From assembly GCA_030141605.1 (NCBI GenBank), contig JAQGDQ010000350.1:104098-168097 (forward strand): a stretch of 64,000 bases of DNA. Direction: 5' to 3'. The DNA is from Tubiluchus corallicola (lineage: Eukaryota > Animalia > Priapulida). Each line of letters starts with the position of its first letter. Positions within the stretch are counted from its first letter, which is position 1. A program made the translations under genes and the position numbers. The notes under the pieces are model-generated. The model had not been told where the DNA came from and did not search any database. It was given only the letters and a program-made list of their open reading frames with translations. Positions 1-49,508 of this stretch are shown here, in pieces.

Positions 1-369
1 GCAAAGGATGTTGAAGAAACTTTGCACTAAGTCTGAAAACCAGGCACACTGAATGTAGCAGTGTTTCATACAAAAAGGCTACAGTAATTCTGGGCAGCAT
101 GGTTTTGAGTCCTTTTGTCTGGGAGGTGGGGTGGCAGAAGAATAAAAATATTAATAATTCCTTTGATGCTTTTGGTTTTTATTTGAAAACCAAGATTTCT
201 GTTTCGCCTATTTGCATCGTTTTAACTCTGGAAACTTTATATTGTTCACCATTCAATATTCATTATTAAACATTAGCCTCCTTGTTCATTTCATCGTGTT
301 GTTCACATTATATTTTTATTACAGTTTTTCGAAGCAACAGTGAAGACTAGCTAGAAATGATAAGCTTAC

Positions 370-955
370 CATCAAGCATTATACTGAATGATGCAGGTCG
401 TCTGTCTGGATGCAATGTGAACATTCGCATGAAATCTGTGCCGGTATCCTTTATCATGATATCCGTGAGATCTGGGTTATCGTAAAAATCAAGATGTTCT
501 ATATCCGACTTTCGTGCGGTAATAATATGTATGATCTGTATAGTCTTTAACTTTGAAAAAGCTCTAGGATGCATTTCAGTTAACTTCCAACTGTTTTGCA
601 AAAACAGCCAGTGTACGGTGAAATTTTCTGGAAAATCATCTTCACCGAATTTTTCAATATTAGAGTCATCAATGATTAACCAATTTATTTTTCTTCCCTC
701 AAGTATTTCTGGATACCAACGGGATTCAGCATATTTCGTGATAATCAGACGCGTTATCAAACTAGGTGCACCTCGTATTATGTCATTTATCACAGGTAGA
801 CTAAGTTTAGGCTCTAATTCACTGCCACACCACTGATAACTATCGATAACTGGAACAGTGTAAATTCTAACTTCATAGTAGCTACAATTCATTTCCCAAA
901 TATAAAGCTCACACTTAAAACACAACAAGAGTACACCTAATAGACAAAGAAACAT
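370..955 (-). CDS. Exon 1 of LRR-module protein paralog B (signal peptide + first LRR module); gene continues beyond the left edge of the window
   Basis: ATG at 955 starts MFLCLLGVLLLCFKC (signal-peptide-like); LRR-like strands (ITRLII, INWLII, VHWLFL, IQIIHI, HPRAF); phase-1 donor G|GTAAGC at 370/369; same length as, and about 22 aa different from, exon 10366-10951. Confidence 0.8.
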
Positions 956-1179
956 GTTTTCAAACTTCAAAAAAGGTTTCAGTTCTGTAGCACCTAGCAA
1001 CCATAAGAATCCTCAACTTAGAATTAAAATGAGAAATTTAATATTGTTGTGAAACAATGGTTTATCAGACAATAAAATACTGGATTCTAGGTTGTCATTT
1101 TATTCTGCATAATTGATTGCAAGTTTAGAACTTGCTTGCAACGAATGAGCGGGCCTAACCATAAAGTAAAACCAGATCT

Positions 1180-1715
1180 AATCTTAAACTGTAAGTCAAT
1201 CTACTCTTTAAAATATAGAAAGGAAACATAATTATTATTTTTTTCAAAAATGACTTACGTGACAGATTAATTACCACACAAGCACAATTTCACGTTTGCA
1301 CCACTAGTTCTTTGCTGCTACATGCATTTCGCCATTCGTTAGTAGGCCTCAGTTCAGATGTGCTAGTTTATGACAAACTGCGCACGTTCAGCAGCTCATG
1401 CGTGAGCAGAATTGTAAATTTGAAATTTGAATTTTTATCTTAAAACTTGCCTAGTTTCAGTGCAACGAACTGAACTTCTTATAATAGCACTGTACTTCAA
1501 CTTTCGTTTTCGCAAACACGTACAACAGCTCAAGGAATATTTTTGCTGTGGAAAATTATGTTTGCACATGATGTCATGAATGGTTGGGCTGGCCCGCGTT
1601 TAATTTTTTAATCTATTATATAATTATCAGCAACGCTTTTGCAGTATTAATTTTTGTAATATGTATTATTTTTATCGGACGAAAATTGGGTAGTATATAA
1701 AAAAATCATCCTGTC
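1180..1715. mobile_element. Dispersed repeat, probable non-autonomous DNA transposon (family also at 11170-11310, 15700-16030, 49521-50075, 51850-52090, 61630-62215)
   Basis: Shared blocks (ttaaactgtaggtcaa, gcgccactagttct, gctcatgcgtgagc, tgatgtcat..gttgggct..cccgc) in direct and inverted copies; one end reads catcctgt, resembling a CAGGGTG-type Tc1/mariner terminus. Confidence 0.6.
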
Positions 1716-4133
1716 TTCCTACAGGAATTTCTTATAATAATGCCAATAGAAATGGTGCAGCTGCTACAAAATGCATTTGCACAATTATGTAAAAAAATTC
1801 TAGAAAAAAAATCAATTTTTAGAAAATCGATTTCCATAATTTACTCGTGATAGTATTTGTTATGCTTACATTACGAATGTCAATGTTAAACTTGCAAATT
1901 TCTAACAATATCCTAATTAAGATTAACACAGAAAACAGTCAAACGGGGTCTTTTGTCTTTAAGAATGCATTGGTTACAGTATTAGATTTGACAGAGTGAA
2001 CACTAGTATAAGCAGACATGAATGAACACGTCACGTTGATGCACTAGTTCTACAGGCTCTTCATATTCTGTCCTGTTCGAGTTACAGAACTCGTCAAACG
2101 TTTTTGAATTTAAGAGGGACTTCACAGCGTATAACAGATCCGAACCACCTTTTGGTAGGTTTCGCAATGAGCAGTTTCACCCTACAGGCTTCCACGCTGA
2201 AGAACGAACATGTGCTATAATTACAGTATTAGATGCTAGATGACTCTCTGTTGTAATTAATTTACACATTTGGCTGAATTGCTAAACCACAACTAATGCC
2301 TTCAGAATATTTATGTGTAAAACAAATTTAGAAGTTACTGATTCTGTTAACAGTTCAACAATTTATTATGTCGCTAAAACTATTACTCGTCTTTTTTTAT
2401 TATTGTATTTATGTGTTATGTTATTACGTATTTTAATTCTGCATTTTGTATGTGCATGATCTTATTTAAGAACCTCCTTGTGATTCGTATAAGAATTAAG
2501 AAGAAGAGTCGTTGTCAGACTCGTCTGATAATGGGATACGTTGTCGTAGCAACCACGTGTGTTTATAAAGCATCTCCTCACAAAGTACAGATGTAGCTGC
2601 CCCATCGCTCTGCTGCGTTAACCCTGCTCCCACAGTACATAGTCAAGTATTCAAATAGCGATTAGAATGGTGGCCAAAGCATGTAGATTGAGTGGTATAT
2701 AGATTGAGAAATATTGAAGTAAGTAGGACTCCCACCTATACCACAGGACCTACAGCCAAGCATCATAACAGTTGACGTCGACTTGTAATGAAGGGAATTC
2801 ACATGTAACTTTCCAAAAGGCTTTGGGATTTGTGCTTATTCAACGCAATGCATAATTGAAGATTTGTGACATTCAAGGTGCATAATAAGCAGTGCATTAG
2901 AGTCGTCATACATCAGCACTGCAATGAGGCATTGCAATAAACATGATTTCTTGTTCGTTGAAACAAAATGTCATAATAACACAGAGAAGTGTGGCGTGAA
3001 TCTCACAAATTTGGTTGTCAAAACGGTGCAATTTATTTGGATCAAAAAATATTTCGCATGTAAAATCTTTTGCAAATTACAAAGCATATTTTCAAAAAAT
3101 TCTGCAGACAACTACAAAACTTTAAAAAACAAAAAACTTTACACATATTTGGACAGTCAATGGCAGGATATTTTTTCGAGCCCCTAATAATAGTCAGAAA
3201 CTGACGGTAGACTTTGAGCAAACGATAGTTGTTTCATAGGATATCTCCCATGTTTAATGTCCTTCAAACTTAATTAAAATTTTTATGGCAAAATTTCCTT
3301 TGTAACCATGAATGTAAACTTAATCAATGTTCACATCAATGTGACATTGGAGACACCTAAAATATTCAACTTTGTCCGTTTCAGAGTTTCCTAATGTAAG
3401 GCAATAGTAGTGAGTAGTCTCCTGCATAAACTGTTTTAAAACTTTACTTCCATTTTAGGGCTACGGTGGCAAAACAGCTCAAGATAAATTATCAACAAAA
3501 TGTGAGAGGCAACTGCAATTCGTCCAGCAAGTAAAGGTTAGAAGCAACAGGGTATCAAAGTTGTCCATGGTGCATGCCAGAAATGGTTAAGGAAGTGTTG
3601 CAATTACTGCAACATCAAAAATAAGAAAAAATCGGAGATATTTTTAATCACAATTTTTAATAGGGCTTTAAAGCGCAAGGCGCTTGACTGCAGTTTGATA
3701 TAATAATATGTGCAGCACCGCATCTTTCTTGTGCAATTAGAGTAAATTAAACCACACCAATGTATAGCTGTTTCAAATACAACTGGAAATACTAGGAATT
3801 TTTTAAATAATTACTGACTCTAATTTAAAATATAAGATTTACAAAGACATAAACGAACTGCAACTTGTTTTACTAAGACAAGTATAGAGCTTAGTTCTAG
3901 CACAATACTGAGTAATTCTCTCACATTATCAATTCATTGGACACTATTTAACCATCTGTCCAAGCTAAAGTACAAGCTACATTTGCTGTGAAGCAGCACT
4001 GATTATCTATTAACGAGCAGATTTATTTCTTGTTTTGTTATTGTTTTTTAGTGATTTTTAATACTTTCTACAATATTTTTGTCTTTTATTAATTTAATGT
4101 CTATCATTTAAGAGGAAGCATGTTTTATTACCA

Positions 4134-4366
4134 TCATGGGCTAAACATAAGCCTCTCTGTTGTAAAACTTAACAAAATAGTTGTGAAACATATCTCAGCC
4201 GGTGAACCTCTTGAGATAAAACTTTTCTGTGTCTCTTCACAAAATTCATCCACTGAAATCTCTCTATCTGTATGCTGTATAGGTGGAACTGCACAATCAA
4301 TTGTCGAAAACAGCCATGGCTTTCCTTTTGTCCATTGCATGCTGCAGTTACAAACAAGACTGCTCA
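4134..4366 (-). CDS. Exon 5 (terminal) of LRR-module gene A: LRRCT-like cap and C-terminal tail
   Basis: Acceptor ttattttag| at 4367; phase 1; LSSLVCNCSMQWTK...IDC...FCEE repeats the CxCxMxW cap seen in exons 2-4; stop at 4134. Confidence 0.7.
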
Positions 4367-5639
4367 CTAAAATAAAATAATTCACCCTGAAAAAAGTTTG
4401 TTTGTACCTGTATGGTAAGACTAGCTTTGTAATGCTTAATAACTGGTATAAAGTTAGGTATTGGTGACAGAACACAGAAAGCCAATTTGCATTGAAAGAG
4501 AACAGAGTAATTTTCCCGATAACTGCTTAAAACATTCCTTGGTTTCCAAGAAATTGCGCACAAGAAAATCTTTATGTGACCAATTTATTTCATTTAAATC
4601 GTAATAAAAACTTGCACTGTTAAGCTTGCTAAACATGTTAGTTATTTAATTTCGATTTTTAAATTTGCTGAGCCATCAGAAAAATTAATGTTAAATTTCG
4701 TGTGTACCTGCTATTTGATATGTAAGCCTATACTTGCCACCATCCGCTTTCTTGAATTATCAGTCACTTTTCTCGGTACAGGACAGAAAAATTTATAAAA
4801 TTTGGGATCAATGTATGAACTGAAAGCTCCTTATTTTGCTACATTTCTCAACTAGAAGGTTTGAGTTGCACATAGCAAAACTGCAGCTTATTGATGGTGA
4901 TTGGATGCAAAACCTAAGCATGCTGAATGATTGCGACATTTATTGGCAAAGTTAGAAAATATAGCAGAAATGTTACGATTATAAAATCAGCATCTGAAAT
5001 GGAGGTTTTTACGTGGGACGTGCAGAAAAAAGCTAAGATTTGTAACGTGTGCAAGCTGGTATAAATGCAAATGCCAAAGTGTTTCATAGACCAAATTTTC
5101 ACATTCTGATTAAACCAGTTTTCACACATAACATAGTGGACAATACTTAAAAGTCTGTGAAAATTTTGAAAATCTTGTATATAATCTTGGTGAAAACTGT
5201 TCAAGTTTATAAAATTGGTTCACTAGCAGTTGTTTTAAAGCGAATCCTAGTAAATTCCAGTCAATTGGTTTTGGTGTAAAGACAAATGATAAATTGAAGT
5301 GTTCAAAATATGAAAATTGACTGTGCAGATTCAGTGAAATTTCCAGGTCTTAACACTGGTTTTAATATCAATTTTAGCGAACATATTTCAAATCTTTGCA
5401 GGCGTACCTCTTGTTAAATTAATGTTTTAAAACGTCTCTTAACTTTACTAAATGTAAACTGTATAAAGGCTTTTTTCCACGCTTTTATATCTTCTGATTT
5501 GAACTATTGTCCACTAGTTTGGTATTTTTGCGGTGCAGCGAACACACAAAAATTGCAAAAATTACAAGAACGTGCTTTAGTTTTGTCTTTAATGATTACT
5601 TTACTGATCATGACAGAATGTTGAAAAAAGCTAAAATTA

Positions 5640-5880
5640 AAAAGCTTATGGAAAATAGGCAAAGTTTAATAGCATTAGAGGTGTTTAAAATTCTACATAA
5701 ACTCCGTCCAAAAAGCTTATGTAACATTGTTAATCTGAGAGAAAGCTCTTAGCAAATGCAATATGATAACGTCATAAGTATTACCAGAGTAAGCACAGAA
5801 TTAGATGGAAAAAAGTAGTTTTCCGATATTCAGCTTCTAAAATTTGGAATGAAAAGCCCAATAATTTGTGCATAGTCACT
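5640..5880 (+). mobile_element. Degenerate non-LTR (CR1/L2-like) ORF2 C-terminal fragment in intron 4 of the LRR gene
   Basis: ALEVFKILHKLRPKSLCN..NLR followed, across stops, by FRYSASKIWN, typical of LINE ORF2 C-termini. Confidence 0.5.
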
Positions 5881-5963
5881 AACTATAATGATTTCTTGAG
5901 GCAAACTAACATATGGAGCAGGGACGTATGTGGTGCAGGCAAGCCAAAATAAGGAAAACTCAC

Positions 5964-6689
5964 ATGTTATCTCTAGAAGAATATAAGAGTATGATCTATC
6001 CTTGTGCAGAGTTGGCGTGTTCATTTGTGATATATTTGTTCCACTAATGATAATGGTAAAAATGGCATTGTTGTTTGATAAATCCATCTCCATAGATACA
6101 AGCTGCTTACAGTTCCTGATGACAATCTGTTCCACATAATTCATTTTGTAAAATGCTTTAGGGTGTATTGATTTCAACTCTTCATTATCGAACAGTTCAA
6201 TTATTGATGTCACATTTCCATAAATGGCTTCTTCGTCCAATCTTTCAATATCTGTCATTCTTAATGTGAACTGCCGTACTGTCTTCCCATCGAGAAACTT
6301 TCTTGGCAATTCTTTCTCTTTATAATCGATAATTTTTAGAAGGTTTGTGCTCCGGGGCAACGAATGCCAGATATCTACCAACTTGTCCATGAAGAGAACA
6401 CTACCATAGTCACCACATATTATATTACATTTCCTAGTTTGTTGCCAATTTATCCACACATCACATTCAGGTATTGGGAGATCACATACTGGATTGTGCG
6501 TTGTTGATTCAGAAGGTACTTTTGTTGTAGTCAAGACACAGTCCTTTAATGATTCTTTCACTTCATCAATAGAAAATTTAACACAGTACAACTGCCAATC
6601 ACACTGCTTGTAACACTCAACTTTACTTGATTTGTGCCAATGTTCACTTTCAGCCCACTTCAAATAACAATTGCAAAGAAGTCTATTTC
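5964..6689 (-). CDS. Exon 4 of LRR-module gene A
   Basis: Acceptor ttacag| at 6690; donor T|GTGAGT at 5964/5963; 726 nt, phase 1-1; GNRLLCNCYLKW cap, Thr-rich linker, Cys N-cap, LRRs with IHPKAF. Confidence 0.85.
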
Positions 6690-6789
6690 CTGTAATACAA
6701 TTAAGTTCCATAACAATAAGTTCTCCACAGAAATTTTATGAGAAACAGTTGGTATCTGGTAATATATTGCAGCAAATAAAAAAAACAAC

Positions 6790-6896
6790 ATTTTCATCAC
6801 CATCATCATCATCACTGTGTCATCATCATCATTATTATCATCATCATCATCATCATCATCATCCTCATCATCATCATCATCATCATCATTATTATC
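6790..6896. repeat. (CAT)n microsatellite in LRR intron 3
   Basis: Imperfect CAT array; it explains the poly-His/poly-Asp ORFs in the track. Confidence 0.95.
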
Positions 6897-7134
6897 CTTA
6901 TAAGTAGACACTGCATACAGCCACCTCTAAGGCTTAACCATAGAAATGAGTTTAATTCTCACAAGATAATAAATTTTACAGATTATGGATTAGTCAATAT
7001 GTGTAATTGGTCAAAAAAGGCGCAATCCTTCTATTTAAATTTTAACTCGGGATCTAGTAGCTTTTAAATTAGCAGTGAGACATGGTACAGTTGTAAATTA
7101 AGAAATTCTTTAAAAAATTCAGTATTGTGGCTAC

Positions 7135-7800
7135 CTTTCAGCTTGAGTTGAATGTTCTTGGAGTCATAATACATGTGTAATTTTGGTTTATCCATGTGCA
7201 TCATTCCAGTTTTTTCAATGTCAATTACACTTAGTTGGCGATTATTAGACAAATCCAAATTTATAGTTTCTAATTTGCGACAGTTTAGAATGATTATATT
7301 TTCAACAGAGTTTATCCAGTAAAATGCTTTTGGGTCGAGAACAGTTAATTCAGGAAGGCGTTTCAAAATGAGAGCAATCCTAATCGTTCCACCAATTGCT
7401 ATTTTTCCAATTGTTTCTAGTTTTGAATCCGTAATTTCCAAAGTGTCGACAGTTTTTCCTGCAAGAAAACGATCTGGAAGTTCCTTTTCCTGAAAATTAG
7501 CAATATAGACATATCGAGTCCAGTAAGGGAGTTCTTCCACGATTTCTTCCATGTCAATTATGAAAAGTGGATCATAATAACCACAAGCAACAAAACAACC
7601 AGTTAAATTATCAAGATATTCAACAACAATACACTCATGAAGCACGATGCCACAGTCAACCGTTAAACATCCAATGAATTCTCCAATTTGTATTTCTCTT
7701 GTTGTATGATTTACTGGTGGATCCTTACAATCGATAGCTGATTCTTTCCAATCTTGTGCTTTAGTCCACTCCATGCTACAATCACATTGTAAGGGATTTC
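7135..7800 (-). CDS. Exon 3 of LRR-module gene A
   Basis: Acceptor ttcacag| at 7801; donor AAAG|GTAGCC at 7135/7134; 666 nt, phase 1-1; GNPLQCDCSMEW cap, LRRs with LDPKAF and LDLSNN. Confidence 0.85.
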
Positions 7801-8864
7801 CTGTGAATAAATTAATAGCTAATCAAATTTGCTAACAAGTTGATGTTATTGTTTGCTGCCTGACTGACCTATATCTAACGTGTGTGTGATACATGTGTTT
7901 GGGCGTCATGTCATGTGTTCACTGTGGTTGGCCTTATTTCACGCGACATACCCAATTCTGAAACAATACGTATTCAAAATTTGGTGACATTTTTCCATTT
8001 AAAAATACTTAACAAACGGTCGTAGAATATATAACTCATTGAATTCACTGGCACGTATGCAATCAAAAGTCGCTGTCAGTATTTTCATTGAATAATAAAT
8101 AATGAAGTATCTTGGATCAATTATGTCAAAAATGGTACTCGTACTCCAGCCCTGTGGCTAGGTACCATCAATTTCTGTTACTAATGGCAACATCCATGAA
8201 AGTTTTGGATATATGAGAAAAAACTGCTCAACGTAACTCCGAGGCTCTTTTCCGGAAATGTTACAATAATAAACTTTGTATAAAAAACAGCTGTGTAGTC
8301 TTAATGATAAATTGTTAGTAAGATACTATATTGATTATTATTTTTTGTTTTTAGTGATGCTAAATAAAGCTAAAAATATAATGCTAAACTCTCTTATCCC
8401 CCAACTCATTAGTGTATCAACTTTTGGAACATAACACCGACTGTTGGCTATATTTTACAAACTTTACAAAATTGCATATTAGCTCACACAACCTCTTTAT
8501 TGAAAGTAATTAGAGCCATTAATTAATTATGGCCAGTAAAGATCAAAAAAATTGATGAAGAAAAAGCAATTAGTTCTTAAATGCAACCATTAGAACGATT
8601 TAAAACATAGCCTGTATGGATACAAGCCATAGACATAGATATTCCCATGTCAATCAAATTTTTCCAAACTTTATGGTACAGGAGACTATTTTAAAAGAAG
8701 AAAATAATATTCAATTGCAAAAAACCATATTCAATTGATAGCTTTTACAAGTGTTGTGATGCCTGCATGTTGTGTAATTTTTTATGTAAAGTGAATTGCA
8801 TATGGTTTAGTGTCCTTCGTCAATAAACTATTATTTTTATAATTATAATGAGTTCTATTTTTAC

Positions 8865-9596
8865 CTGTAAGTTTGATGATTAGCTGATCAGGAGTACTGC
8901 TTGGATGAAAATTTGGCATATCCATTTGAGTTATGCCAGTTTTGTCTATAGTGAGGATTTGCAAATAGCGACACTTCCGTAAGTCCAAATTTATAGATAT
9001 CAGACGTGGGGCGTCTGAAATTAATATATATTTAACATAACGCTGTAATTCAAATGCTCTTGGGTCAATGTAGTAAAGTTTATCATTGCTTATAATTCTG
9101 ATATTTTTTGCAACTTTTCCACTAATTTCACCAATTCCAACCCACTCTATACTGTTGTATTTCATTTCAAAGGTGTTAATCGTTTTGGATTTTAAAAATC
9201 GAAGTGGTAGTCGTCTTTCTACGTAATTACTGATATACAATGCATCAAAATTGTCAGGAACGGTTTTCTCTATGACATCCAAATTTCCGAAATCAAGTCT
9301 GAAGAACCAACCGCATTGAATCTGGCACGGATCTGTATTCAGAAAACGACACACTGGTAATTCTGGGCCGCACGGCTGTGGTTTTGGTGTGGTCGTAGGA
9401 GGGTTCGTCCATGTAGGGTGGATAATTGTTCTGATTGTTGACTCAGTAGTGGTTGTGGGGCATCCCAAGAATTCGTCAAAATCTGCAAGAGTCATAGGTG
9501 GATTTACTCGTGGAGGGTCCAGGCATTCTATTCTTGAAAACTGCCAATTCACAGCTTTTGTCCACCGCATTGAACAGTTACAAATCATTGGATTTT
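8865..9596 (-). CDS. Exon 2 of LRR-module gene A
   Basis: Acceptor ctttttag| at 9597; donor ACAG|GTAAAA at 8865/8864; 732 nt, phase 1-1; ENPMICNCSMRW cap, Thr/Pro-rich linker, LRRs with IDPRAF. Confidence 0.85.
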
Positions 9597-9766
9597 CTAA
9601 AAGAAATCAGCACAATTTAATGAATATATTCTTATTAATTTGTTTCGTGTTTATTCATAAAATTGTGTAATTTGTAATATAACTGATTGTTGCAAATTTG
9701 TTTGAACCTGTTTTCATGCTTTCGTTTTCTGCAACTTTTTAATTTTGGAAACTTCATTCTACCTTT

Positions 9767-9767
<1 letters not shown>

Positions 9768-9804
<37 letters not shown>

Positions 9805-9900
9805 CTTTCTCTTACTTTCTCTCTCTCTTTCCCATGTCTCTCTTGCACTCTCTGTCTTTCTCTTTCCCTCTGTCTCACATCCCTCCCCTCCCCCCTCTCT
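9768..9900. repeat. (CT)n microsatellite / polypyrimidine tract
   Basis: Direct reading. Confidence 0.9.
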
Positions 9901-10365
9901 TACAAACTTCTTAGAGTAATTTTGCTTTAAAAGGGGCTTCCATATATGTATTGCGTTTTAATCTTATCTGTTGTAATTATAAGGACATGATAAGACTCAG
10001 TATTTAACTATACTGGAGGCTGATCTTTATCTACTTTTTCATAAAGTTTGTTTAATTAATTTATATATCTTTTAATTGCTGATTTGTACAGTTTGCCTGC
10101 CGGAATTAGCCTAGCTCATGAGCCCATGCACAGTAAATTTGTTGTCTTCTTTTGCTGTCAGTATTGTGCCAGAAATTGATACAGCCTATTCTGGCACAGT
10201 AACGGTTTCCATGCTGAATCGGGTCAGTACAATTGTGGTGTGCAAGCGGTTTTGGAGCGGTATAGGCCCGATTGCTGATTTTAGCTTGCGTGTACTGGGC
10301 CAATATCGTACATGCAATAATGCTATGTAACTGGCTCATAATATCAATATTTATTGGGAGATTAC

Positions 10366-10951
10366 CATAAAATATTATACTGAATGTTTCTGGTCGTCTG
10401 TCTTTATGCAGTGTGAACATTCGCATGAAATCTGTGCCGGTATCCTTTATCATGACATCTGTGAGATCTGGGTTGTCGGAAAAATCAAGATGTTCTATAT
10501 CCAACTTTCGTGCTTTAATAATATAAATGATCTGTATAGTCTTTAACTTTGAAAAAGCTCTAGGATGCATTTCAGTTAACTTCCAACTGTTTTGCAAATA
10601 CAGCCTGCTTACGGTGAAATTTTCTGGAAAATCATCTTCACCAATTTTTTCAATGTTAGAGTCATCAATGATTAACCAATTTAATTTTCTTCCATCAAGT
10701 ATTTCTGGATACCAACGGGATTCAGCATATTTCGTGATAGTCAGAGTCGTTATCAAACTAGGTGCACCTCGTATTATATCATTTATCACAGGTAGACTAA
10801 GTTTAGGCTCTAATTCACTGCCACACCACTGATAGCTATCGATAACTGGAATAGTGTAAATTCTAACTTCATAGTAGCTACAATTCATTTCCCAAGTATA
10901 AAGCTCACACTTAAAACACAAGAAGAGTACACCTAATAGACAAAGAAACAT
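10366..10951 (-). CDS. Exon 1 of LRR-module gene A (spliced CDS 2943 nt, 980 aa)
   Basis: ATG at 10951 with hydrophobic N-terminus; donor TATG|GTAATC at 10366/10365, the same position as in paralog B; exon lengths 586+732+666+726+233 = 2943, in frame throughout. Confidence 0.85.
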
Positions 10952-12877
10952 GTTTTCAAACTTCAAAAAAGGTTTCAGTTTGTAGCACCTAGCAACCATA
11001 AGAATCCTCAATTTAGAATTAAAATGAAAAACTTAATATTGTTTTGAAACAATTGTTTATCAGACAATTAAATACTGTACTCTAGGATGTCATTCTATTC
11101 TGCATAATTGATTGCAAGTTTAGAACTTGCTTGCAAAGAATGAGCGAGCCTAACCATAAGGCAAAACCGGACCCAAAATTAAACTGTAGGTCAAAGAAAT
11201 CTAATTTTTAAAATATTGAAAGGAAACGTGCTATTTTTTCGAAAGTGACAAACACAATTTCACGTTCGCGCCACTACTTCTTCTCTGTTACATGCATTTC
11301 ACCATTCGCCTGATTAACTGCCTAACTGTAACACATATGCAATATTAAGTTTATAATATACATGTATGTTGCTCTGTTGTATGCGTTTTATTTTGTGCTT
11401 GAACCATTAAGCCACTTATATGTGGTTTCTTTGTTTAGATGTATAATGTTTTTAAGTAGTTTTTCTTTATCTTTTGTAACTTTTGGCCAAAGACTGAATC
11501 CACCCAAAAGGTAATCATGTGGTGGGGTAGGTGCTGTTGGCGCTCTTGCTGCAAACCACTTTCCAGTGGTCATACATGCTTGCATGTATCTTCTGCTCCA
11601 AATCTGCAAAAGACATTGTAAAACGTCGGAGAGAAACTACCACATAGATTCCTAGGTGCGCCCCGTTTAATTCTATGATGGAAAGCCGTGCAGTAATATA
11701 TAATAATCTTAATAAAACGTGACTATGCTCAACAGGTTACTGAACACTTTATAATCATGATCACAGTTTTTCTTAGTTCTCGCTCCATTTAATCTTTCAT
11801 TCACTACTCCCCCCACTTTTATGTATATATTATCATTATTCATTATTTCAATTATTAATCATTCTTTTTTAAGATTTCCACGTACAGTTTGGCCTGCCAA
11901 GCTATGCTTTTAGGCTCAAACTGTATGCATCAAAATTATTCTGTAATGAAATTTGCACATGTATATGCTGCATTTTGTAATTTCTCGATAATACTGCATT
12001 TATTTATATTTATATTTATATTTATATTTACCTAAATGGATAATTATCTGTATTTTAATGATAATTGTAAGATGCAATGTGGAAATGAATAAACTCTCTT
12101 AAACTCTCTAAACTCTTAAATTCACTATAAACATGTTGACAGTGGCAAAAGTGTAATTTCAGCACTTTCCATTAAACAAGTTACCCATGTGCTTATTGTG
12201 TTGAACTCTTACAGATTTGCAGTCTATTTGCACCTTCTGTTTTTTTCTTATTAATTAAAACGTTCGACCTCTGTTAATGTTCTGCAAAATTAATGCAATT
12301 TTCTACTGTCCTAAGTTGTGTATGAGATCTGTATTGCATCCATGTTTCACAATGATTTTAATAAAACTGAGTTAAAAAGTAATCAGTTGCAGAAAGTATT
12401 TATTTTCGTTTTATCCAGTCGGCCTGCTGTTTGATATCAGCACCTAAAATTTTATAAAGTTAGAACCAATAATGAGGCTTTGACACGTGCTTGTCAAAAC
12501 AGTGCTACCAGCAACCCAAACAACTGACCAATAAGAAAAACTCACTACGAAATCGGATATCCTAGCTGAAACAGCAAAGCATGTTTAGAGTTGAAAAATC
12601 ATTTTCTGAGAAAATTATGGCATTCCACTTACGTCTTGGTCATAGATAAAGATTTTAGCTCCTGGGGGGAAAAAGTGAGACAGACACAATGGATCGCATT
12701 AAAACACTGTGGACTGAGCACAATTACATTAAGTTTCATAATTTTTCGGTTAGTGTCGCCCTTTACATGACCTCAATTAAGAACTGATGAGAAACATGTA
12801 TTCCGATTGGAGATTTTGTGCAAAAAAGACGAATATTTAGCATTTCCAGTGGTCAGATTTAAAGGAAATTTATGGAA

Positions 12878-15156: not shown

Positions 15157-16383
15157 ATAAAGATAACAATAAATTGTGTAAATATTTTTTTATTTGCTTC
15201 TGAATCGAACCAGATATTTTTGGTTTTACAGTAAATCTATTTTCGTTTAGAAATTTGGCTAACTGCTTTGTTTATGGTAGTAGTTACATGTTTCTATTTT
15301 TTCAGTGTTTGGATTTGCGTGCTTTAGATCAGTCTGCATTAATTCAATTCATTATAATTGTTTTTTCATTCATTTTATTTCTGTAGGGCACTATCAGCTG
15401 TATTTAAATGATGAGATTCCATTCTCTTCTATTTTGCATATACCTTAATTAAATTAAAAGTAAAATAACTTTTGCCATTTGTCTTCAATTTACAAAGCTG
15501 AGTTATGTGCAGTTTAATGACATCAGCGTCCAAATTTTATTGTATTCCACCTGCCAGTTGGTTGCCAAGCACACTTTCAAAGGTAAACAATAAGTTTTCA
15601 TATTACACTCCATTTTGAAGTACAGTAAAAAGCATACATTTTAACACCAATTAAACTGCAGAAGAGCATCTCTGATAATTAAGTAATAGATTAAAAACTT
15701 ATCAGAAGGCGGGCGAGCGGAACTATTAATGGCATTGCAGCTGAACATTATTTTCAATGGCAGACACATTCCGTGATCGTGTTGCAATAGAGTAAATTAA
15801 AGTATGGTGCTACTGTAGAACATTCAGGGTGATATACAAAAACTCTGCAGATATTCAAATTTCAAATTTTCCGCTGCTCATACATGAGATCCTGAACATG
15901 TGTGCAACATCACAAACGAACACCTCTGAACGGAGAAGCGCAGCACCAGTTTCCGAGGTGCAGGTGCTAGTGCCCATCTAACCAGTGAAGAACTAGACTC
16001 GCAAATATGAAATTGCATTTGTAAGCTAATAATTTTTTCACATTTATTATTCTTGAAAGAATAGTATGTTGGGACAGATTTTTCTTTAATGAGTTGAGGG
16101 GTGGTACATTTTTTAAGTGAGTATGCTTGAATACAAAGACTGGGCTGAAAAAGCTTCCCTTTTGCTCAGATTTCATTTTGCTCGCTGTATCAATTACAAT
16201 CTCAACTTACTTTTGTAGGCTATATTTTTTGAATTTTCTTTTATTTCTTTTATTCTTGTACACATCATGTTGAATTGTCCTTTACTCTTATTTAGAAAAT
16301 GATTATTTAATAAAATACGAGCCTTTATTTTTGTCTTTTGTTTCTTTTTTGGCAGATACAGATGAAGCTCATGAATAATCAAG

Positions 16384-17715
16384 ATGAATCCAACTGTTCA
16401 GACAGACTTTGTAAGTGTTAAAATGGAACATAATGTTTTAGAAAATGTCACAGAAGATTGCGACAACGATGTTCAAGCAGTTGTTGTCGTTCCAAAAATT
16501 GAAACTTGTATTTTAGGAAATGTGACAACAAATTATAGTAATGAAGAATTGATAAATCAGGATGTAGAAGTTTATTCTGCGCCAGTGAAATGTGAACCAG
16601 AAGTGTCAACATTCGATGTAAAAACTTACAGCAACAGTGAAATGGCATACCATGATGATCAAGATACTTTCATGCCTGAAGAACAAGAGACTAACATCTC
16701 AACTGAAGCTGTAGAAGGTGTGGCACATCATGACGATCAAGATGATGATGTCTGTGAAGAAAAGGTTTTTGCATGCGAACATTGTGGAGCTGTTTATTCT
16801 CGCTCCGGTTCTTTGAGACGTCACGTACGAACCCACGACAAAGATAAACCTTTAAAATGTGATTACTGTGAAGCTGAATTTATTTTTCCGTGCGATTATA
16901 AGCGTCATGTTAGAACTCACACAGGTGAAAAACCTTACAGATGTTCGCAATGTGATGCTGCGTTCATTAAAGCTTGGAGTTTGAAAAGTCATATGAGAAC
17001 TCACACAGGAGAGAAGCCTTTCAAATGTGATGAGTGTGATGCTGCATTCTCTTGGTCAAATGATTTAAAACGTCATGTAAGAATTCATACGGGAGAGAAA
17101 CCATATAAATGTAATCAGTGTGATGCTGCTTATACTTGGTCAAATGCATTGCAGCAACATTTGAGATCACACACCGGCGAGAAGCCATTTAAATGTGACT
17201 TATGCAACTCTGCCTTTTCTCATTCAAGCCACTTAAAATGTCATTTGAGGATTCACAATGATGAAAAACCTTTTAAATGTATCTGGTGCAAAGCCGCTTT
17301 TAATCAGTCGGGACACTTAAAAGAACATTTGAGAATTCATACGGGAGAAAAACCTTATAAATGTGACCACTGTTCTCTTACTTTTGCTCATTCAGGCAGT
17401 TTGAAACGACACTTAAAAACTCACACAGGAGAAAAACCGTATGAGTGTTGCCACTGCAATGCACGTTTTGCTCAATCGAGACACTTAAAAGAACACGTAA
17501 GAACTCACACAGGAGAAAAGCCTTACAAGTGTGATAGCTGTGATGCTGCTTTTGCACGCTCAGGCACTTTAAAGCGACATATAAGAACTCACACAGGATT
17601 GAAACCTTATAAATGTAATCAGTGTAGTGCAGCTTTCACTCGCTCTGGATCATTGGCTGGACATGTGAAAACTCACCAGAAGCAAAACCTCTCCAGCAAA
17701 ATTCATTGTTCCTAG
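16384..17715 (+). CDS. C2H2 (Kruppel-type) zinc-finger protein, 11 tandem fingers, acidic N-terminus, 443 aa
   Basis: 11 CxxC-x12-HxxxH units with TGEKP(Y/F) linkers; acceptor at 16355 upstream; AATAAA near 17781. Confidence 0.95.
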   Translation: MNPTVQTDFVSVKMEHNVLENVTEDCDNDVQAVVVVPKIETCILGNVTTNYSNEELINQDVEVYSAPVKCEPEVSTFDVKTYSNSEMAYHDDQDTFMPEEQETNISTEAVEGVAHHDDQDDDVCEEKVFACEHCGAVYSRSGSLRRHVRTHDKDKPLKCDYCEAEFIFPCDYKRHVRTHTGEKPYRCSQCDAAFIKAWSLKSHMRTHTGEKPFKCDECDAAFSWSNDLKRHVRIHTGEKPYKCNQCDAAYTWSNALQQHLRSHTGEKPFKCDLCNSAFSHSSHLKCHLRIHNDEKPFKCIWCKAAFNQSGHLKEHLRIHTGEKPYKCDHCSLTFAHSGSLKRHLKTHTGEKPYECCHCNARFAQSRHLKEHVRTHTGEKPYKCDSCDAAFARSGTLKRHIRTHTGLKPYKCNQCSAAFTRSGSLAGHVKTHQKQNLSSKIHCS

Positions 17716-22410: not shown

Positions 22411-23439
22411 TAAGTGGCTATTGTGGCTTTTCATACAAAAAGAAACACTTGTTGGATTTCTCAGCTGACTGGACTTGTGTCTAAACGCCTTTTGCAGCAC
22501 ATTTGAAGACCTAGCAGAGAGTGCATCATTCGTAGGAACCTACGTACCCTGGCAGAGCTGAAACTGTGAAAATATGACTGTAAATTTTTTATTTTCTACT
22601 GTTCATTTAGTGCTTGAATTTCAGCTGTCTTTACTATGTAATCTAGATACTTAATATTTCACCGGTTAATAAGGTTTGCTATTACTGTATAATTTAGTTG
22701 GTGCTGCCACCTATTTTACAGTGCTTATGAACAGCAACGCATTCTAGACAAAGCAAACACTGTGGTATCACACAATTTATTTACAATGCAGAAAAATTAT
22801 GCAAAGCCAAAAAACTCCAATTTACATTCAGCACAACAATATTTTACGAAAACTCATATGTTTCATTTCACAAAATCAATTTATCTACATTGGAGAAAAA
22901 TAAGTCAAAAACTCCAATTAACATTTCGGCACAGTCATGTGTGCCATTTAATAATGTATTTATGAAGGCTCGGTAACTGGACCCATGGAGGACTCCGTAT
23001 TTTCGTTATGATTTTTATGATATTCATAAAATATGTGCAGAAAAAATATTCAAAACGTTCCAAAAATTTTCCAATGTTGAGAACAAGTCAAAGTTGATTG
23101 AAGACAGTTTCTCAATGATGGTCATGAGCAAAAATAACTATTTCAATGTTGGCTAGTGAAATACAGCTTTCTACTGGGAGGCTTCCAATGTGCCAAGTTA
23201 AATTCCAGTGCAAGATGACCCAAATTTCTCTTTGGAGGTTTGTAGAATTTAGATAAATTTCAATTAGAACGTTAATTGCTATTTGCAATTTACAACTTCA
23301 GCATCATCAGCGGAATACATTGCAGTTCTACGTAATATTTAAAGTTGACATTCAAGACAAATTCTCTGCAATACATTGTATTCTAAAGTGCAATATATGC
23401 TGCGATATTAACTGCAACATTTCCTATAAGCTGCAGTAT

Positions 23440-23885
23440 ATATCAAATAAACTGTAGTATATTCTATTAATTATAACATATCCTATAATCTGCAGTAATT
23501 TAACTGCAATATATCGAACAAACTGTAGTATATTTTGTTAATTGTAACATGCCCTAAAAACTGCAGTATTCTGTTAACTGCAATATGTCATACAAACTGT
23601 AGTATATTTTGTTAATTGTAACATGCCCTAAAAACTGCAGTATTCTGTTAACTGCAATATATTATACAAACTGTAGTATATTTTGTTAATTGTAACATGC
23701 CCTAAAAACTGCAGTATTCTGTTAACTGCAATATATCATACAAACTGTAGTATATTTTGTTAATTGTAACATGCCCTAAAAACTGCAGTATTCTGTTAAC
23801 TGCAATATATCATACAAACTGTAGTATATTTTGTTAATTGAAACATGCCCTAAAAACTGCAGTATTCTGTTAACTGCAACATATT
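23440..23885. repeat. Minisatellite, 60-bp unit, about 6-7 copies
   Basis: aaactgtagtatattttgttaattgtaacatgccctaaaaactgcagtattctgttaactgcaat recurs; the left edge is degenerate; period estimated by eye. Confidence 0.85.
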
Positions 23886-24499: not shown

Positions 24500-25315
24500 T
24501 CACACAGTGATGGAAATTACCACAACTGGTTCATGAAAATATACATAATGTACTGATAGAATACCATATGTGGTATAGGGGCATAGTGATGCCACAGTAT
24601 TGTGATGGATGTTATAGAACAGTGATGGAAAACAACCATCATCAGATGAAAATACATATAATGTACTAATAGAATACCATATTTGGTATAGGGGCATAGT
24701 GATGCCACAGTATTGTGATGGATGTTATAGAACAGTGATGGAAAATAACCATCATCAGATGAAAATACATATAATGTACTGATAGAATACCATATTTGGT
24801 ATAGAGGCATAGTGATGCCACAGTATTGTGATGGATGTTATAGAACAGTGATGGAAAATAACCATCATCAGATGAAAATACATATAATGTACTGATAGAA
24901 TACCATATTTGGTATAGGGGCATAGTGATGCCACAGTATTGTGATGGATGTTATAGAACAGTGATGAAAATAACCACATCAATAAAATACATAATGTACT
25001 GATAGAATACCATATTTGGTATAGGGGCATAGTGATGCCACAGTATTGTGATGGATGTTATAGAACAGTGATGGAAAATAACCATCATCAGATGAAAATA
25101 CATATAATGTACTGATAGAATACCATATTTGGTATAGGGGCATAGTGATGCCACAGTATTGTGATGGATGTTATGGAACAGTGATGGAAAATAACCATCA
25201 TCAGATGAAAATACATATAATGTACTGATAGAATACCATATTTGGTATAGGGGCATAGTGATGCCACAGTATAGTGATGGATGTTATAGAACAGTGATGG
25301 AAAATACCATCATCA
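24500..25315. repeat. Tandem repeat, 113-bp unit x7
   Basis: catagtgatgccacag recurs at 24582, 24695, 24808, 24921, 25028, 25141 and 25254 (one 107-bp unit). Confidence 0.95.
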
Positions 25316-25739: not shown

Positions 25740-27060
25740 ATAATTATCATTGAAGCTGCAACAATTCTGGTACAGAAAACAGCATCCAATGAAAGATTGC
25801 GTGATCAAAATTCTCTGGATAAAATTGAACATAATCATCATTGAACTGTACCAACAATTATGGTACAAAAATCTGCATCCAATTGAAGATTGCGTGATCA
25901 AAATTCTCTGGATAAAACTGAACATAATCATCATTGAACTGTACCAACAATTATGGTACAAAAATCTGCATCCAATTAAAGATTGCGTGATCTACATTCT
26001 CTGGATAAAATTGAACATAATCATCATTGAACTGCGCCAACAATTATGGTACAAAAATCTGCATCCAATAAAAGATAGCGTGATCAAAATTCTCTGGATA
26101 AAATTGAACATAATTATCATTGAACTGTACCAACAATTATGGTACAAAAATCTGCATCCAATTAAAGATTGCGTGATCTACATTCTCTGGATAAAATTGA
26201 ACATAATTATCATTGAACTGTACCAACAATTATGGTACAAAAATCTGCATCCAATAAAAGATAGCGTGATCAAAATTCTCTGGATAAAATTGAACATAAT
26301 CATCATTGAACTGTACCAACAATTATGGTACAAAAATCTGCATCCAATTAAAGATTGCGTGATCTACATTCTCTGGATAAAATTGAACATAATCATCATT
26401 GAACTGCGCCAACAATTATGGTACAAAAATCTCCATCCAATAAAAGATTGCGTGATCAAAATTCTCTGGATAAAATTGAACATAATTATCATTGAACTGT
26501 ACCAACAATTGTGGTACAAAAATCTGCATCCAATTGAAGATTGCGTGATCAAAATTCTCTGGATAAAATCGAACATAATCGTCATTGAACTGTACCAACA
26601 ATTATGGTACAAAAATCTGCATCCAATTGAAGATTGCGTGATCAAAATTCTCTGGATAAAATCGAACATAATCATCATTGAACTGTACCAACAATTATGG
26701 TACAGAAAACAGCAACCAATAAAAGATTGCGTGATCAAAATTGCCTTGATAAAATTGAAAGTAATTATCATTGAAACTGTACCAACAATTATAGCAGAGA
26801 AAAAAGCTCCGTTAAAGATTGCCTGATCAAAATTGCCTTGATCAAATTGAAAGTAGTTGGCATTGAAACTGTACCAACAATTATAACAGAGAAAAAAACC
26901 TCCGTTAAAGATTGCCTGATCAAAATTGCCTTGATCAAATTGAAAGTAGTTGGCATTGAAGCTTTGTTGTCGTGGGCAAAATTGAAAGTATTCATCACTG
27001 AACTTATAGAAACAATTATAACACAGAAAAAAGTTACATTGTATGATGAAAATTGCATTG
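25740..27060. repeat. Tandem repeat, 93-bp unit x about 11, with diverged terminal units
   Basis: 31-aa periodicity (KILWIKLNIIIIELYQQLWYKNLHPIKDCVI) in ORF 25750-26826. Confidence 0.95.
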
Positions 27061-29597
27061 ATCAAGTTGAACATGACCAACACTGAAGCTGTACAAGCAG
27101 TTAACTTCAACTGGCTTTGCTAGATTTAGTCTACTACAAAAAGACAAGTTTAGGGATATTTCAGCATTCGACTGCAAAGTTATGTTATTGTAGAGGGACT
27201 GAAACTCAACTCATTAGGACTAATCATCGAAGAATAGACTTTGGACCAGCAATGTTAACTGTGTTTTTGAAATGGTCACCCGTTAGTTTACTGTCGGGTC
27301 TCTGCTCTACTTAACTTCGATTGCTAAGCTAAGCCCGCCATGTTTTGGCTAATGTAATTTTAGTAGTAGCCACTTATGCTTTTACTATCTTATCTTCGCT
27401 CCGTTTAATTTCAATTAGTAAGTAAAGTCAATCATATTCTAGGGTATGTGATTTTAGGAGTGGTCACTCATCCAACTACTTTCCAGTCTCAGCTCTGGTT
27501 AACTTTAATTGTGAAGGCTACTAATCTTGCCCTAAAGCTAAAATAATATTTTTAAACCGAACAAAAGGCCAATACCAGATGGCACAAGCATTCTGCTAAA
27601 CCTAGTTAGTCCTCCAAAGACTGCCATAAAAGCCCACATACCCACAGCCTAAAAAATTTATAAATGTAATGTTTTACAAAAATAACGTATTAAGGTATAT
27701 GCCAATGGCCTGCAATTAACAATGTTAGGTTGGGAGGTGAATTGGGGTTTGCGAAATTGGTAAGGTAATGAGAAAAAGTGAGCAATGTGACAATGCTTTT
27801 GAGCAAAGATTTACATGATCTGAATAATAATTTAAAATCGTTGTACAGTTCTTTAAACTGCACAATTTTTAATATGCTTCCCTCAAGTAACTACAGTATA
27901 TGTTAGTAGAAAGAAAACTGTCAGTCGTTAATGCCTAGGACTTGTCTGTCTTTAGTGAAAGTTTGTTCTGCTATACAGTAGCGATATGCACTGTACATGT
28001 ACATACTTCTATACACGCGCGCTATGTATAAAAGTACAAATTTTATGTACAGAATGCATACGTCTTACGGTATCACAGAGCTCAATGTCAGAACTTACTG
28101 TACTTATGGGAAGCATTTTGGTAAACAAAATCGCGAATCGTGGTAAAAAAATTCCTGGTTAGAAGCTTTTAAGTACAGCGTGGAGTCTCGTTTAGTAAAT
28201 TTTATAAAATGTTTCTTTTAAAGGCAACACGTAAAAGGAAATCAAGGAACTGCAGGCCCTTGTCAAGCAAAGGAAAGATTGGCCAGGAGGAGACTGCAGG
28301 CTGCCCATCCCATCCCACTACTTACACAAACCAACCTAGTTCCCCCTCAATTTACTCAGTATTAATACTGATATACAACTAGTAAGCAGTAAACGTATTT
28401 ATATACAATGGACTTTCAATATACTAGGAAGAATAAAAGACTCCCTTTATAACATACTTCGTGGGGATGACTGTTTTTCATTTCACACAGTGTGGAGGAC
28501 ATGGCTTTCTCCTAAAGAATGACAGATTTTCATTTCACAAACTGAGGGGATGGGAGGACATGGCTTTTTTCTTAAGCATGACACACTTTCATTTCACAGA
28601 GTAACAAACGATAACAACTTCAACATATCATTAGTTCCCAAGACAGCTATATTGAGGTTTTCAGGCAGCAGTATTTCATTTACTTTATCAAAGAAAAAAG
28701 TGTTCAACAGACTCACTCGAAATCCACAATTACAATTCAGCAATAATGGTGACCGTTATCTTTACATAAAAGGTCACAGTTTAGCTGAGAAAATGCGATT
28801 CTCATGCACTGAAATTGGAGGTTTACCAAATGAAAAATGCTTCTTACACAATGAAAAACTTAAATGAGTTTTAAGCTCTTGTTTGAATTCTGAACAGGAT
28901 GTAATTTCACAAATGTTTTGTGGTAAGTTGTACCACACATTAGTTGTCCACATGAAAAAGATATTTTACAGCTTACATAACAGTAGTTAAAATTTCTGCA
29001 TTTTTAGTACCACTGCACATGTAATACGGGGTAACTTCTTCTACCTTTGGCACCAGTATTGCACTTAAGCAGTGTGGCAATAAGTCAATGATTATTTTGA
29101 AAAAAAGACATACTAATGCAAGCGCGTCACTAATTTAGCGAAACCGCTATCAGACAAGATGCCTGCAGGGAAGATGGAAATGTAGCACTGGAACAAATTC
29201 TAGTAGCAGATAGCTGAATATTTTCTAATAAACGTAAATTATCTTCACTGCATACTGATCACACAACGTTGCCATATTCAATAGCTGGCAGAATAGTCAT
29301 AATGAATAATCATTCGCACGTCGCTCTAGAACTGATATGGCTTTCTTTCTAAAGCACGAATGACTTCTCATTTCAGAGAGGGGATGGGAGGATATGGCTT
29401 TCTTTTAAAGCACGTCAGACTTCCATTTTACGTGGTAGAGGAAGAAAGAAATTCTAGAATTTCTAACTGTAACTTCATTTTAATATTATTGTAATGAAAA
29501 CGATGCATTTTTTATACACCACCCGATATTAGATTCTATTTTGTATATACAGCATAGTACTTTCGTGCAAACTAAATTATTGCTTTTTATTTTTTAG

Positions 29598-30005: not shown

Positions 30006-30258
30006 GGCGTTTTCGGTATGTCTCTTTTCTATACAATTAGTTTGACAGTAAGGCAGTGAACTATCAGAGTTGCTTTGGTTATGTCTGCTAGAACGGGGAG
30101 GTGAGTTCCCCCTTTTGCTCCTCTTCCGACCAATTGGGATAGTATGGCACATGTTTGCTTGGACTGTAAAGTGCAATGGTGTTATCATATGTTCTAATGG
30201 TTTGTATATACAGAAAAGTACTTTAGAGTAAACCAAATTATTGCTTTTTATTTTTTAG

Positions 30259-47778: not shown

Positions 47779-47854
47779 TCTTATCATTATTACTAATCAT
47801 TCTTGTCATTATTTCTAATCACAATAATGATACTGAAATCTGATGCTGAAAGTT

Positions 47855-49323: not shown

Positions 49324-49508
49324 ATGAATGTACAGTTCTGTATTCAGTAAGCTGTTTGCCAGCATTCAACATCAGTGGTCACTGATATGAATGTACAGTT
49401 CTGTATTCAGTAAGCTGTTTGCCAGCATTCAACATCAGTGGACACTGATATGAATGTACAGTTTTGTATTCAGCAAGCTGTCTGCCAGCATTCAACATCA
49501 GTGGACAC
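49324..49508. repeat. Tandem repeat, 63-bp unit x3
   Basis: atgaatgtacagtt recurs at 49324, 49387 and 49450. Confidence 0.95.

What the first reader, a model, noticed from the sequence alone, without database searches (positions are those of the whole stretch)
4134..10951. Beads-on-a-string LRR protein assembled from symmetric phase-1 exon modules
Seen: five exons join in frame (980 aa) and all four introns are phase 1 at the same position, just inside the G/E-N-P motif that starts the CxCxMxW cap. Each internal exon holds the previous module's C-cap, a linker (Thr/Pro-rich in exons 2 and 4), a Cys N-cap and about 6 divergent LRR strands. The modules are strongly diverged from one another. 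There is a signal peptide and no TIR or kinase domain; the tail is only weakly hydrophobic (possible GPI signal). Inference: a lineage-specific multi-module recognition protein built by exon duplication; skipping any internal exon would keep the frame and could give combinatorial isoforms.
Basis: partly seen in the sequence, partly recalled or inferred. Interest (0 to 1): 0.72.

Follow-up and report, generated by a model that had tools for sequence, protein, structure and literature searches.

The report
Four-bead surface LRR protein, unnamed family
This animal DNA holds a five-part reading frame for a predicted cell-surface protein made of four copies of a small leucine-rich-repeat binding unit from an unnamed family; it likely arose by gene fusion and exon copying and likely binds outside molecules with a fast-changing surface, while the idea that it makes many versions by exon skipping is untested.

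Summary
The gene model holds. Five minus-strand exons join into 980 aa, and all four GT-AG introns are phase 1, five codons before the first cysteine of the C-cap. The G/E-N-P motif is present at only 2 of 4 junctions. A profile built only from 13 outside relatives finds exactly four modules and aligns without gaps across every junction. The modules fold as six-strand LRR solenoids resembling Slit2 D2 and the FSH receptor. The relatives are an unnamed family of mostly single-module proteins with a signal-like start and a GPI-like tail; two fragments are multi-module. The modules are old (24-39% identical). Frame-safe skipping follows automatically from copying one intron, gives at most 8 forms, and is untested. 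Verdict: a real Slit-like, four-module variant of a new LRR-only surface family, likely a multivalent recognition or adhesion protein. It is not Slit, a Toll receptor or an LGR.

The parts
10366..10951 (-). Exon 1: predicted signal peptide (about aa 1-15, 10951-10907), two-Cys N-cap and six LRR strands of module 1; phase-1 donor
   Evidence: N-terminal hydropathy 3.04; Pfam LRR_8 E=6e-5, below the curated cut-off
9597..10365 (-). Intron 1, 769 nt, GT-AG, phase 1; contains a (CT)n run
8865..9596 (-). Exon 2: C-cap of module 1, Thr/Pro linker (29 aa), four-Cys N-cap and six LRR strands of module 2
7801..8864 (-). Intron 2, 1064 nt, GT-AG, phase 1
7135..7800 (-). Exon 3: C-cap of module 2, 4-aa linker, N-cap and LRRs of module 3; LRR part predicted at pLDDT 74-90
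6690..7134 (-). Intron 3, 445 nt, GT-AG, phase 1; contains a (TCA)n run
5964..6689 (-). Exon 4: C-cap of module 3 (most diverged, two extra Cys), Ser/Thr/Pro linker (17 aa), N-cap and LRRs of module 4
4367..5963 (-). Intron 4, 1597 nt, GT-AG, phase 1
4134..4366 (-). Exon 5: C-cap of module 4 and a 34-aa tail (4238-4137) with a weakly hydrophobic, GPI-signal-like stretch; TGA; AATAAA sites follow from 4129
370..955 (-). Exon 1 of a tandem paralog (586 nt, 35 nt and 22 aa differences, intact frame, strong phase-1 donor at the same site); the rest would lie beyond the window edge
363..1338 (.). Duplicated block (exon 1 plus upstream flank), 89% identical to 10359-11308; similarity ends at the donor site

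Best explanation
The five exons join in frame into four capped leucine-rich-repeat modules of one unnamed family, predicted to be exported, likely tethered to the cell surface by a GPI anchor, and likely binding extracellular ligands multivalently through four different concave faces, as a recognition co-receptor or adhesion protein with no signalling tail of its own. Origin (inferred): the ancestor was a two-exon gene, [signal, N-cap, six LRRs] then a phase-1 intron then [C-cap, stalk, GPI signal], like the single-module relatives. Head-to-tail copies fused so that one copy's C-cap and stalk ran into the next copy's N-cap. That made the circularly permuted internal exon, and old duplications of exon plus intron (or further fusions) brought the number to four. 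The shared intron phase is a by-product of this history. The whole gene, or at least its 5' part, was copied again recently, and the copies differ mostly on the binding face. Shown: frame, splice geometry, family membership, tandem copy, clustering of substitutions. Predicted: fold, signal peptide, GPI anchor. Inferred: origin, ligand binding, any immune role.
For: Gap-free match of an outside-only HMM across 4 of 4 junctions, 134-188 bits against at most 65 for Slit-type domains. AF2 of exon 3: residues 82-221 at pLDDT 74-90, FSHR Z 14.4, rmsd 2.5, 147 aligned. AF2 of relative P0012: module at pLDDT about 80-98, Slit2 D2 Z 17.5, rmsd 3.0, 193 aligned. 19 of 154 proteins held score 83 bits or more on the family HMM (13 of them built it); all 19 are unnamed singletons held only by Logan. 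13 of 13 near-complete single-module relatives end in a hydrophobic tail (13-residue mean 1.51-3.2; window 1.55) and 12 of 13 start with a hydrophobic stretch. P0004 and P0012 carry C-cap, linker, N-cap, LRRs and C-cap in one ORF, so multi-module forms exist elsewhere; P0008 has a long Thr-rich stalk after the C-cap. C-cap spacing C-x-C-x16-C is present in 3 of 4 window modules and 10 of 13 single-module relatives. Paralog substitutions: concave 7 of 25, other exposed-like 2 of 58 (p=0.003), strand core 2 of 15; 7 of 25 against 9 of 155 over residues 1-180 (p=0.002).
Against: Transcription and splicing of this locus are untested. The tail is among the weakest in the family and is followed by Glu and Arg, so the protein may be secreted rather than anchored; no GPI or signal-peptide predictor was run. 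Overall dN/dS of the paralog pair is 0.65 (bootstrap 0.31-1.55). Concave pN 0.15 against overall pS 0.07 is not clearly above 1 (p=0.05-0.12 depending on rounding), and concave positions are the most variable in the family anyway, so relaxed constraint is not excluded. Only one pair of sequences was compared. The trees are mostly unresolved with long branches, and do not separate fusion of diverged paralogs from old intragenic duplication (AU p=0.06 and 0.008 for one window clade; p=0.16 once P0007 and P0010 are allowed in). The N-cap and C-cap part of exon 3 was not modelled confidently (pLDDT below 50). No ligand is known for any member.
Confidence: 0.6

Rival explanations
1. A combinatorial receptor system: internal exons are skipped or exchanged between tandem paralogs, so that each LRR solenoid can take another module's C-cap, giving a variable repertoire.
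For: All 8 exon combinations keep the frame and the cap register. Tandem paralog with concave-face divergence. Frame-preserving LRR exons are alternatively spliced in human NLRP3 (PMC6642158, passages). A spider LRR locus gives proteins with different LRR arrangements (PMC6700725, passages).
Against: Only three cassettes, so at most 8 forms. No further variant exon in the window. Introns share no homology beyond chance-level 13-36 nt hits, so ongoing exchange between modules is unlikely. Phase symmetry needs no selection for skipping, and symmetric exons are over-represented generally (PMC3632108, passages).
Confidence: 0.12
2. A non-immune extracellular scaffold or chaperone: a structural, cuticle, matrix or secretion component that holds partner proteins, as the 35-kDa LRR subunit of Oplophorus luciferase associates with its enzyme.
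For: The top ESM Atlas look-alike of exon 3 is an Oplophorus non-catalytic-subunit-like cluster (0.91, 152 shared features). That subunit's function is stated as unknown (PMC9491549, passage). No signalling domain. The nearest folds are developmental and hormone-binding LRRs.
Against: 152 shared features is below the 170 typical of same-family hits, and the same cluster ranks 8th for exon 1. Concave-face clustering of changes between recent copies fits changing ligands better than a fixed partner.
Confidence: 0.22
3. The locus is decaying or is mis-joined: separate remnants of tandem single-module genes, or a pseudogene.
For: Weak GPI-like tail, loss of the N-P motif at junctions 3 and 4, an unusual C-cap in module 3, and weak acceptor scores for exons 4 and 5.
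Against: No stop or frameshift in 980 codons although the modules are only 24-39% identical. Internal exons have no signal peptide or tail of their own. GT and AG sit at exactly homologous positions, with a gap-free family match. The same internal arrangement occurs in P0004 and P0012.
Confidence: 0.06

Closest known systems
Slit proteins, N-terminal region (four LRR domains)
   Same: Four separately capped LRR domains in a row. The family module's best structural match is Slit2 D2 (Z 17.5, tied within 1 with FSHR and TSHR). Slit2-N and the Slit-like, predicted GPI-anchored amphioxus FrLRR bind bacteria (PMC10199209, abstract and passages).
   Different: No EGF repeats, laminin-G domain or cystine knot; GPI-like tail instead; non-canonical caps; Slit-type domains score at most 65 bits on the family HMM against 134-188 for the window modules; one exon per module.
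LRR_Only class of extracellular LRR proteins (Dolan et al. 2007, PMC2235866): CD14, Connectin, Nyctalopin (GPI); Lrrc17 and Halfway (two capped blocks)
   Same: Signal peptide, only LRR blocks with Cys caps, GPI or secreted topology; two-block members are listed there (passages). Shrimp LvCD14L is a secreted LRR-only pattern receptor working through Tolls (PMC10178686, abstract).
   Different: Four blocks; repeats fail the strict LxxLxLxxN pattern; the N-cap lacks the canonical CxC and the C-cap is shorter than CT1; no orthology shown.
Glycoprotein-hormone receptor and LGR ectodomains (FSHR, LHCGR, TSHR)
   Same: Best sequence-profile hits (E about 1e-5) and top fold matches for the LRR part; similar degenerate repeats.
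   Different: No seven-transmembrane domain, no CT3 cap, six repeats per module; 13-18% identity.
[quoted passage not shown]
   Same: Top language-model look-alike of exon 3; an expanded single-domain family, with several members changing after Vibrio infection or salinity change in shrimp (PMC11532942, table passages).
   Different: No alignment to a named member was obtained; the match is lead-level only; this protein has four modules.
Symmetric (1-1) exon duplication in multidomain proteins
   Same: Phase-symmetric exons multiplied without breaking the frame (PMC3632108, passages).
   Different: The exon is not the folding unit: it carries the previous module's C-cap and the next module's N-cap and repeats.

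Membership tests
Unnamed Logan-only single-module LRR family (P0003, P0006, P0009 and others) | Scores on the family HMM well above other LRR domains | tested here: met
   4 modules at 134-188 bits against at most 65 for non-members among 154 proteins held
Unnamed Logan-only single-module LRR family | Six LRR strands and a short C-cap C-x-C-x16-C-x17-20-C | tested here: met
   6 strands in 4 of 4 modules; spacing in 3 of 4 caps, module 3 has x17 and extra Cys
Unnamed Logan-only single-module LRR family | Hydrophobic N-terminus and hydrophobic C-terminal tail | tested here: met
   N-terminus 3.04; tail 1.55, at the low end of the family range 1.51-3.2
Extracellular LRR superfamily, LRR_Only class | LRR solenoid fold | tested here: met
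Extracellular LRR superfamily, LRR_Only class | No other extracellular domain, no TIR | tested here: met
   The Pfam scan of the five exons shows no such domain; four family modules plus linkers and tail cover the chain
Extracellular LRR superfamily, LRR_Only class | Cleaved signal peptide and GPI anchor or secretion | tested here: inconclusive
   Hydropathy only; no SignalP or GPI predictor available
Canonical LRR-NT / LRR-CT1 capped type (patterns of PMC2235866) | LRR-NT C-x2-8-C-x-C-x6-19-C; CT1 with 19-34 residues between Cys 2 and 3; strict LxxLxLxxN | tested here: not met
   0 LRR-NT and 0 strict-LRR matches; spacing is 16-17; the two CT1 pattern hits use out-of-register Cys
Slit | Four capped LRR domains | tested here: met
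Slit | EGF repeats, laminin-G domain, C-terminal cystine knot | tested here: not met
   The ORF ends 34 aa after the fourth C-cap; no EGF motif; Slit architecture from PMC10199209
Toll-like receptors | Transmembrane helix plus TIR domain | tested here: not met
   No 19-residue window above 1.05 near the C-terminus; no TIR
LGR / glycoprotein-hormone receptors | CT3 cap and seven-transmembrane domain | tested here: not met
Oplophorus 35-kDa-subunit-like LRR proteins | Sequence relationship to named members | tested here: inconclusive
   Atlas 0.91 with 152 shared features for exon 3, 0.89 for exon 1; no named member was available to align
Combinatorial receptors (Dscam-like exon arrays, VLR-like cassettes; features recalled) | Large arrays of alternative cassettes | tested here: not met
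   Three internal exons and no further cassette within the 64 kb window; the rest of the genome could not be seen
Combinatorial receptors (Dscam-like exon arrays, VLR-like cassettes; features recalled) | Variable cassette use in RNA or rearranged DNA | not testable with these tools
   Needs reads from this organism

The most novel reading that the evidence does not exclude
An undescribed, expanding family of GPI-anchored LRR recognition proteins in an invertebrate lineage that builds a receptor repertoire on two levels: diversifying selection on the concave faces of tandem paralogs, and shuffling or skipping of circularly permuted module exons, where each skip gives a solenoid another module's cap. 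This would be a whole-domain cassette system distinct from Dscam, VLR and one-repeat-per-exon LRR arrays.
Probability: 0.1. Interest if true: 0.8.

Novelty: new variant of a known kind. Interest (0 to 1): 0.42.

Why it matters
It defines an unannotated family of surface LRR proteins that Pfam barely detects: all 19 relatives looked up are unnamed. It also shows a route from a one-module GPI-type gene to a Slit-like four-module chain, independent of Slit, through a circularly permuted exon. If the concave-face divergence holds across more paralogs, the family is a candidate invertebrate recognition repertoire that can be tested directly by binding assays and long-read cDNA. If not, it is an ordinary case of exon multiplication in a secreted protein.

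Tried and rejected
No whole genome is held, so family size, the rest of the paralog and the organism's lineage could not be determined. RNA: no RNA holder listed; the single run offered gave only 6 short partial contig matches and no joints; this says nothing about expression. Word-seeded homolog searches found nothing with exon 3 (longer proteins) or the five-row window alignment, and only 4 proteins with the family alignment, two of them its own rows. The metagenome scan found no relative. Foldseek gave no match at E<=0.001 for the exon-3 model, though its best rows were LRR proteins; a Foldseek run on the second model was not obtained. Most of the 150 best hits are long generic LRR proteins ranked by many weak stretches; 25 were read and membership was then judged by HMM on all 154 held. 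P0046 (Nymphon striatum, named LGR4) is only distantly related (at most 42 bits) and looks like two merged genes, so it does not identify the lineage. A Cys-containing frame at window 78-1 (E=0.34) was rejected as a paralog exon: the nearest AG gives the wrong phase. Alternative donors and acceptors near each boundary score lower or break the family register. Two AU tests did not finish; the tree left out P0042, P0053, P0060, P0086 and both halves of P0046. Nine literature searches listed no paper describing this family; the library lacks most subscription papers and no supplements were read. PMC13581211 gave no passage for the term sought. Earlier-findings look-ups by place and sequence were empty. 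No complex prediction was run, since no partner is proposed.
Full report
Observation. The window is 32-42% GC animal-type DNA rich in simple repeats. On the minus strand five exons (10951-10366, 9596-8865, 7800-7135, 6689-5964, 4366-4134) join into 980 aa without an internal stop. The four introns (769, 1064, 445, 1597 nt) are GT-AG and phase 1, and each splits the codon five residues before the first Cys of a CxC..W cap. The chance of each long exon being stop-free is 2e-7 to 4e-6. Donors are at the 92nd to 99th percentile of GT sites and acceptors at the 58th to 94th (donor matrix recalled). The strongest check is independent of the window: an HMM from 13 outside relatives finds exactly four domains in the joined chain (134, 174, 158, 188 bits) and aligns without a gap across all four junctions.

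Anatomy. Each module has a Cys N-cap, six LRR strands with periods of 23-26 and a short C-cap. LRR parts are 24-39% identical and C-caps 28-51%. Introns share only chance-level matches. Pfam barely sees the repeats (best LRR_8 E=6e-5, under the cut-off), and the canonical LRR, LRR-NT and CT1 patterns of PMC2235866 (passages read) are not met in register. AlphaFold2 of exon 3 gave a confident solenoid for residues 82-221 but not for the cap region; it matches FSHR (Z 14.4, rmsd 2.5, 147 aligned), LRIG1 and LGI1. A relative, P0012, folded with a 22-row alignment at mean pLDDT 83; its module matches Slit2 D2 (Z 17.5, rmsd 3.0, 193 aligned), FSHR and TSHR. A shared fold shows no function. The N-terminus is hydrophobic and there is no transmembrane-strength segment at the C-terminus.

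Relatives. A full HMMER search gave 824 proteins at E<=0.001 and listed 150. Most are long generic LRR proteins. On the family HMM, 19 of the 154 proteins held score 83 bits or more (13 of them built it) and the next non-member domain scores 65. All 19 are unnamed singletons held only by Logan, on contigs of 0.9-1.7 kb. Thirteen are near-complete single modules: 12 of 13 begin with a hydrophobic stretch and 13 of 13 end in a hydrophobic tail, the pattern of GPI-anchored proteins (interpretation from general knowledge). The window's tail lies at the same place and is among the weakest (1.55). P0004 and P0012 hold part of one module, a linker and a full second module in one ORF, so multi-module forms exist elsewhere. 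These ORFs run through the position where the window has introns, which suggests spliced transcripts (inference; their DNA was not seen). P0010 resembles module 1 and loses similarity exactly at that position, as intron read-through would (inference). P0007 is 47% identical to module 4. The lineage stayed unknown; ESM Atlas look-alikes are mostly arthropod and chordate LRR clusters, led by an Oplophorus-subunit-like cluster for exon 3 and a TSHR-like one for exon 1.

History. Trees place module 1 with P0010 (97/97 and 87/96, with a long-branch warning) and module 4 with P0007 (91/78 and 93/84). The window modules form one group in 0% of 200 bootstrap trees in both runs; AU p=0.06 (25 rows, mixture model) and 0.008 (19 rows, LG+G4), and 0.16 when P0007 and P0010 are allowed in. 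So the modules are old. The internal exon is a circular permutation of the folding unit. The simplest route (inferred) is a two-exon ancestor with one phase-1 intron before the C-cap, fusion of head-to-tail copies so that the C-cap and stalk ran into the next N-cap, then copying of exon plus intron or further fusions. The Thr-rich linkers resemble the stalk of P0008. On this reading the four introns are one intron, and their shared phase is a single fact, not four.

A second copy. Exon 1 and its upstream flank recur at 1338-363, 89% identical, head to tail 3.2 kb after the stop; similarity ends at the donor, and the rest lies beyond the window. The copy is intact, with 35 nt and 22 aa differences; dN/dS is 0.65 (0.31-1.55). 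With strands defined by pattern, changes fall on 7 of 25 concave positions against 9 of 155 others in residues 1-180 (p=0.002; the unshifted mask is the highest of 25 shifts), and against 2 of 58 other exposed-like positions in the LRR region (p=0.003). Against this: concave pN (0.15) is not clearly above pS (0.07) (p=0.05-0.12), concave positions are the most variable in the whole family, and this is one pair.

How it likely works. The chain would be exported, glycosylated (8 sequons), likely GPI-anchored, and would display four differently surfaced LRR beads on partly mucin-like linkers. Without a cytoplasmic part it would act by capture and avidity, alone or with a signalling receptor. Functional models in print: shrimp LvCD14L, an LRR-only pattern receptor acting through Tolls (PMC10178686, abstract), and amphioxus FrLRR and human Slit2-N, which bind bacteria (PMC10199209, abstract and passages). 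A non-immune scaffold role remains open; the Oplophorus 35-kDa subunit's function is unknown (PMC9491549, passage), though family namesakes change on infection or salinity change in shrimp (PMC11532942, table passages).

Exon skipping. All 8 combinations keep the frame, and each skip would give a solenoid the cap of a later module in register. Precedents exist for spliced LRR exons (PMC6642158, passages; PMC6700725, passages), and symmetric exons are common (PMC3632108, passages). But three cassettes give little diversity, no spare cassette lies in the window, and use in RNA is untested. Three earlier scan notes on other genomes reached similar verdicts on phase-symmetric arrays; they are unchecked and not independent support.

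Verdict. A real gene; a four-module, Slit-like variant of an undescribed LRR-only surface family; not Slit, TLR or LGR. New variant of a known kind; interest 0.42. The repertoire reading has about a 10% chance and would deserve 0.8.

Noticed in passing
window 955-370 (-) and 1338-363: Tandem paralog of exon 1; similarity with the first copy stops at the donor, and 8 of the last 15 codons differ, which may mark the end of a gene-conversion tract or a partial duplication.
   Followed up: partly
window 16375-17715 (+): Single long ORF (446 aa stop to stop) with a tandem array of C2H2 zinc fingers, the nearest other gene, divergently oriented.
   Followed up: partly
window 29478-30517 (+) and 40435-41125 (-): Three copies (87-96% identical) of an element carrying a 123-135 aa open frame with no Pfam match; probably a fragment of a mobile element.
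   Followed up: partly
window 58625-59131 (+): 168-aa frame with an HTH_psq domain (E=3e-7), likely the start of a pogo-like transposase (family label recalled).
   Followed up: partly
window 25740-26944, 24533-25315, 23438-23884, 47853-48564: Minisatellite arrays with units of 93, 113, 74 and 26 nt; the 93-nt array gives a 360-aa open frame with no Pfam match.
   Followed up: no
window 1340-1720: Dispersed repeat with copies near 15600-16000, 49500-50100, 51900-52100 and 61600-62200, lying at the upstream edge of the duplicated block.
   Followed up: no
window 10999-10951 (-): An upstream in-frame ATG adds 16 residues in the first copy but is out of frame in the paralog by a 1-nt indel, favouring the ATG at 10951 as the start.
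   Followed up: yes
protein P0046 (KAG1673515.1, Nymphon striatum): A 628-aa record named LGR4 looks like two tandem LRR genes merged by annotation, as a second signal-peptide-like stretch starts mid-protein.
   Followed up: no
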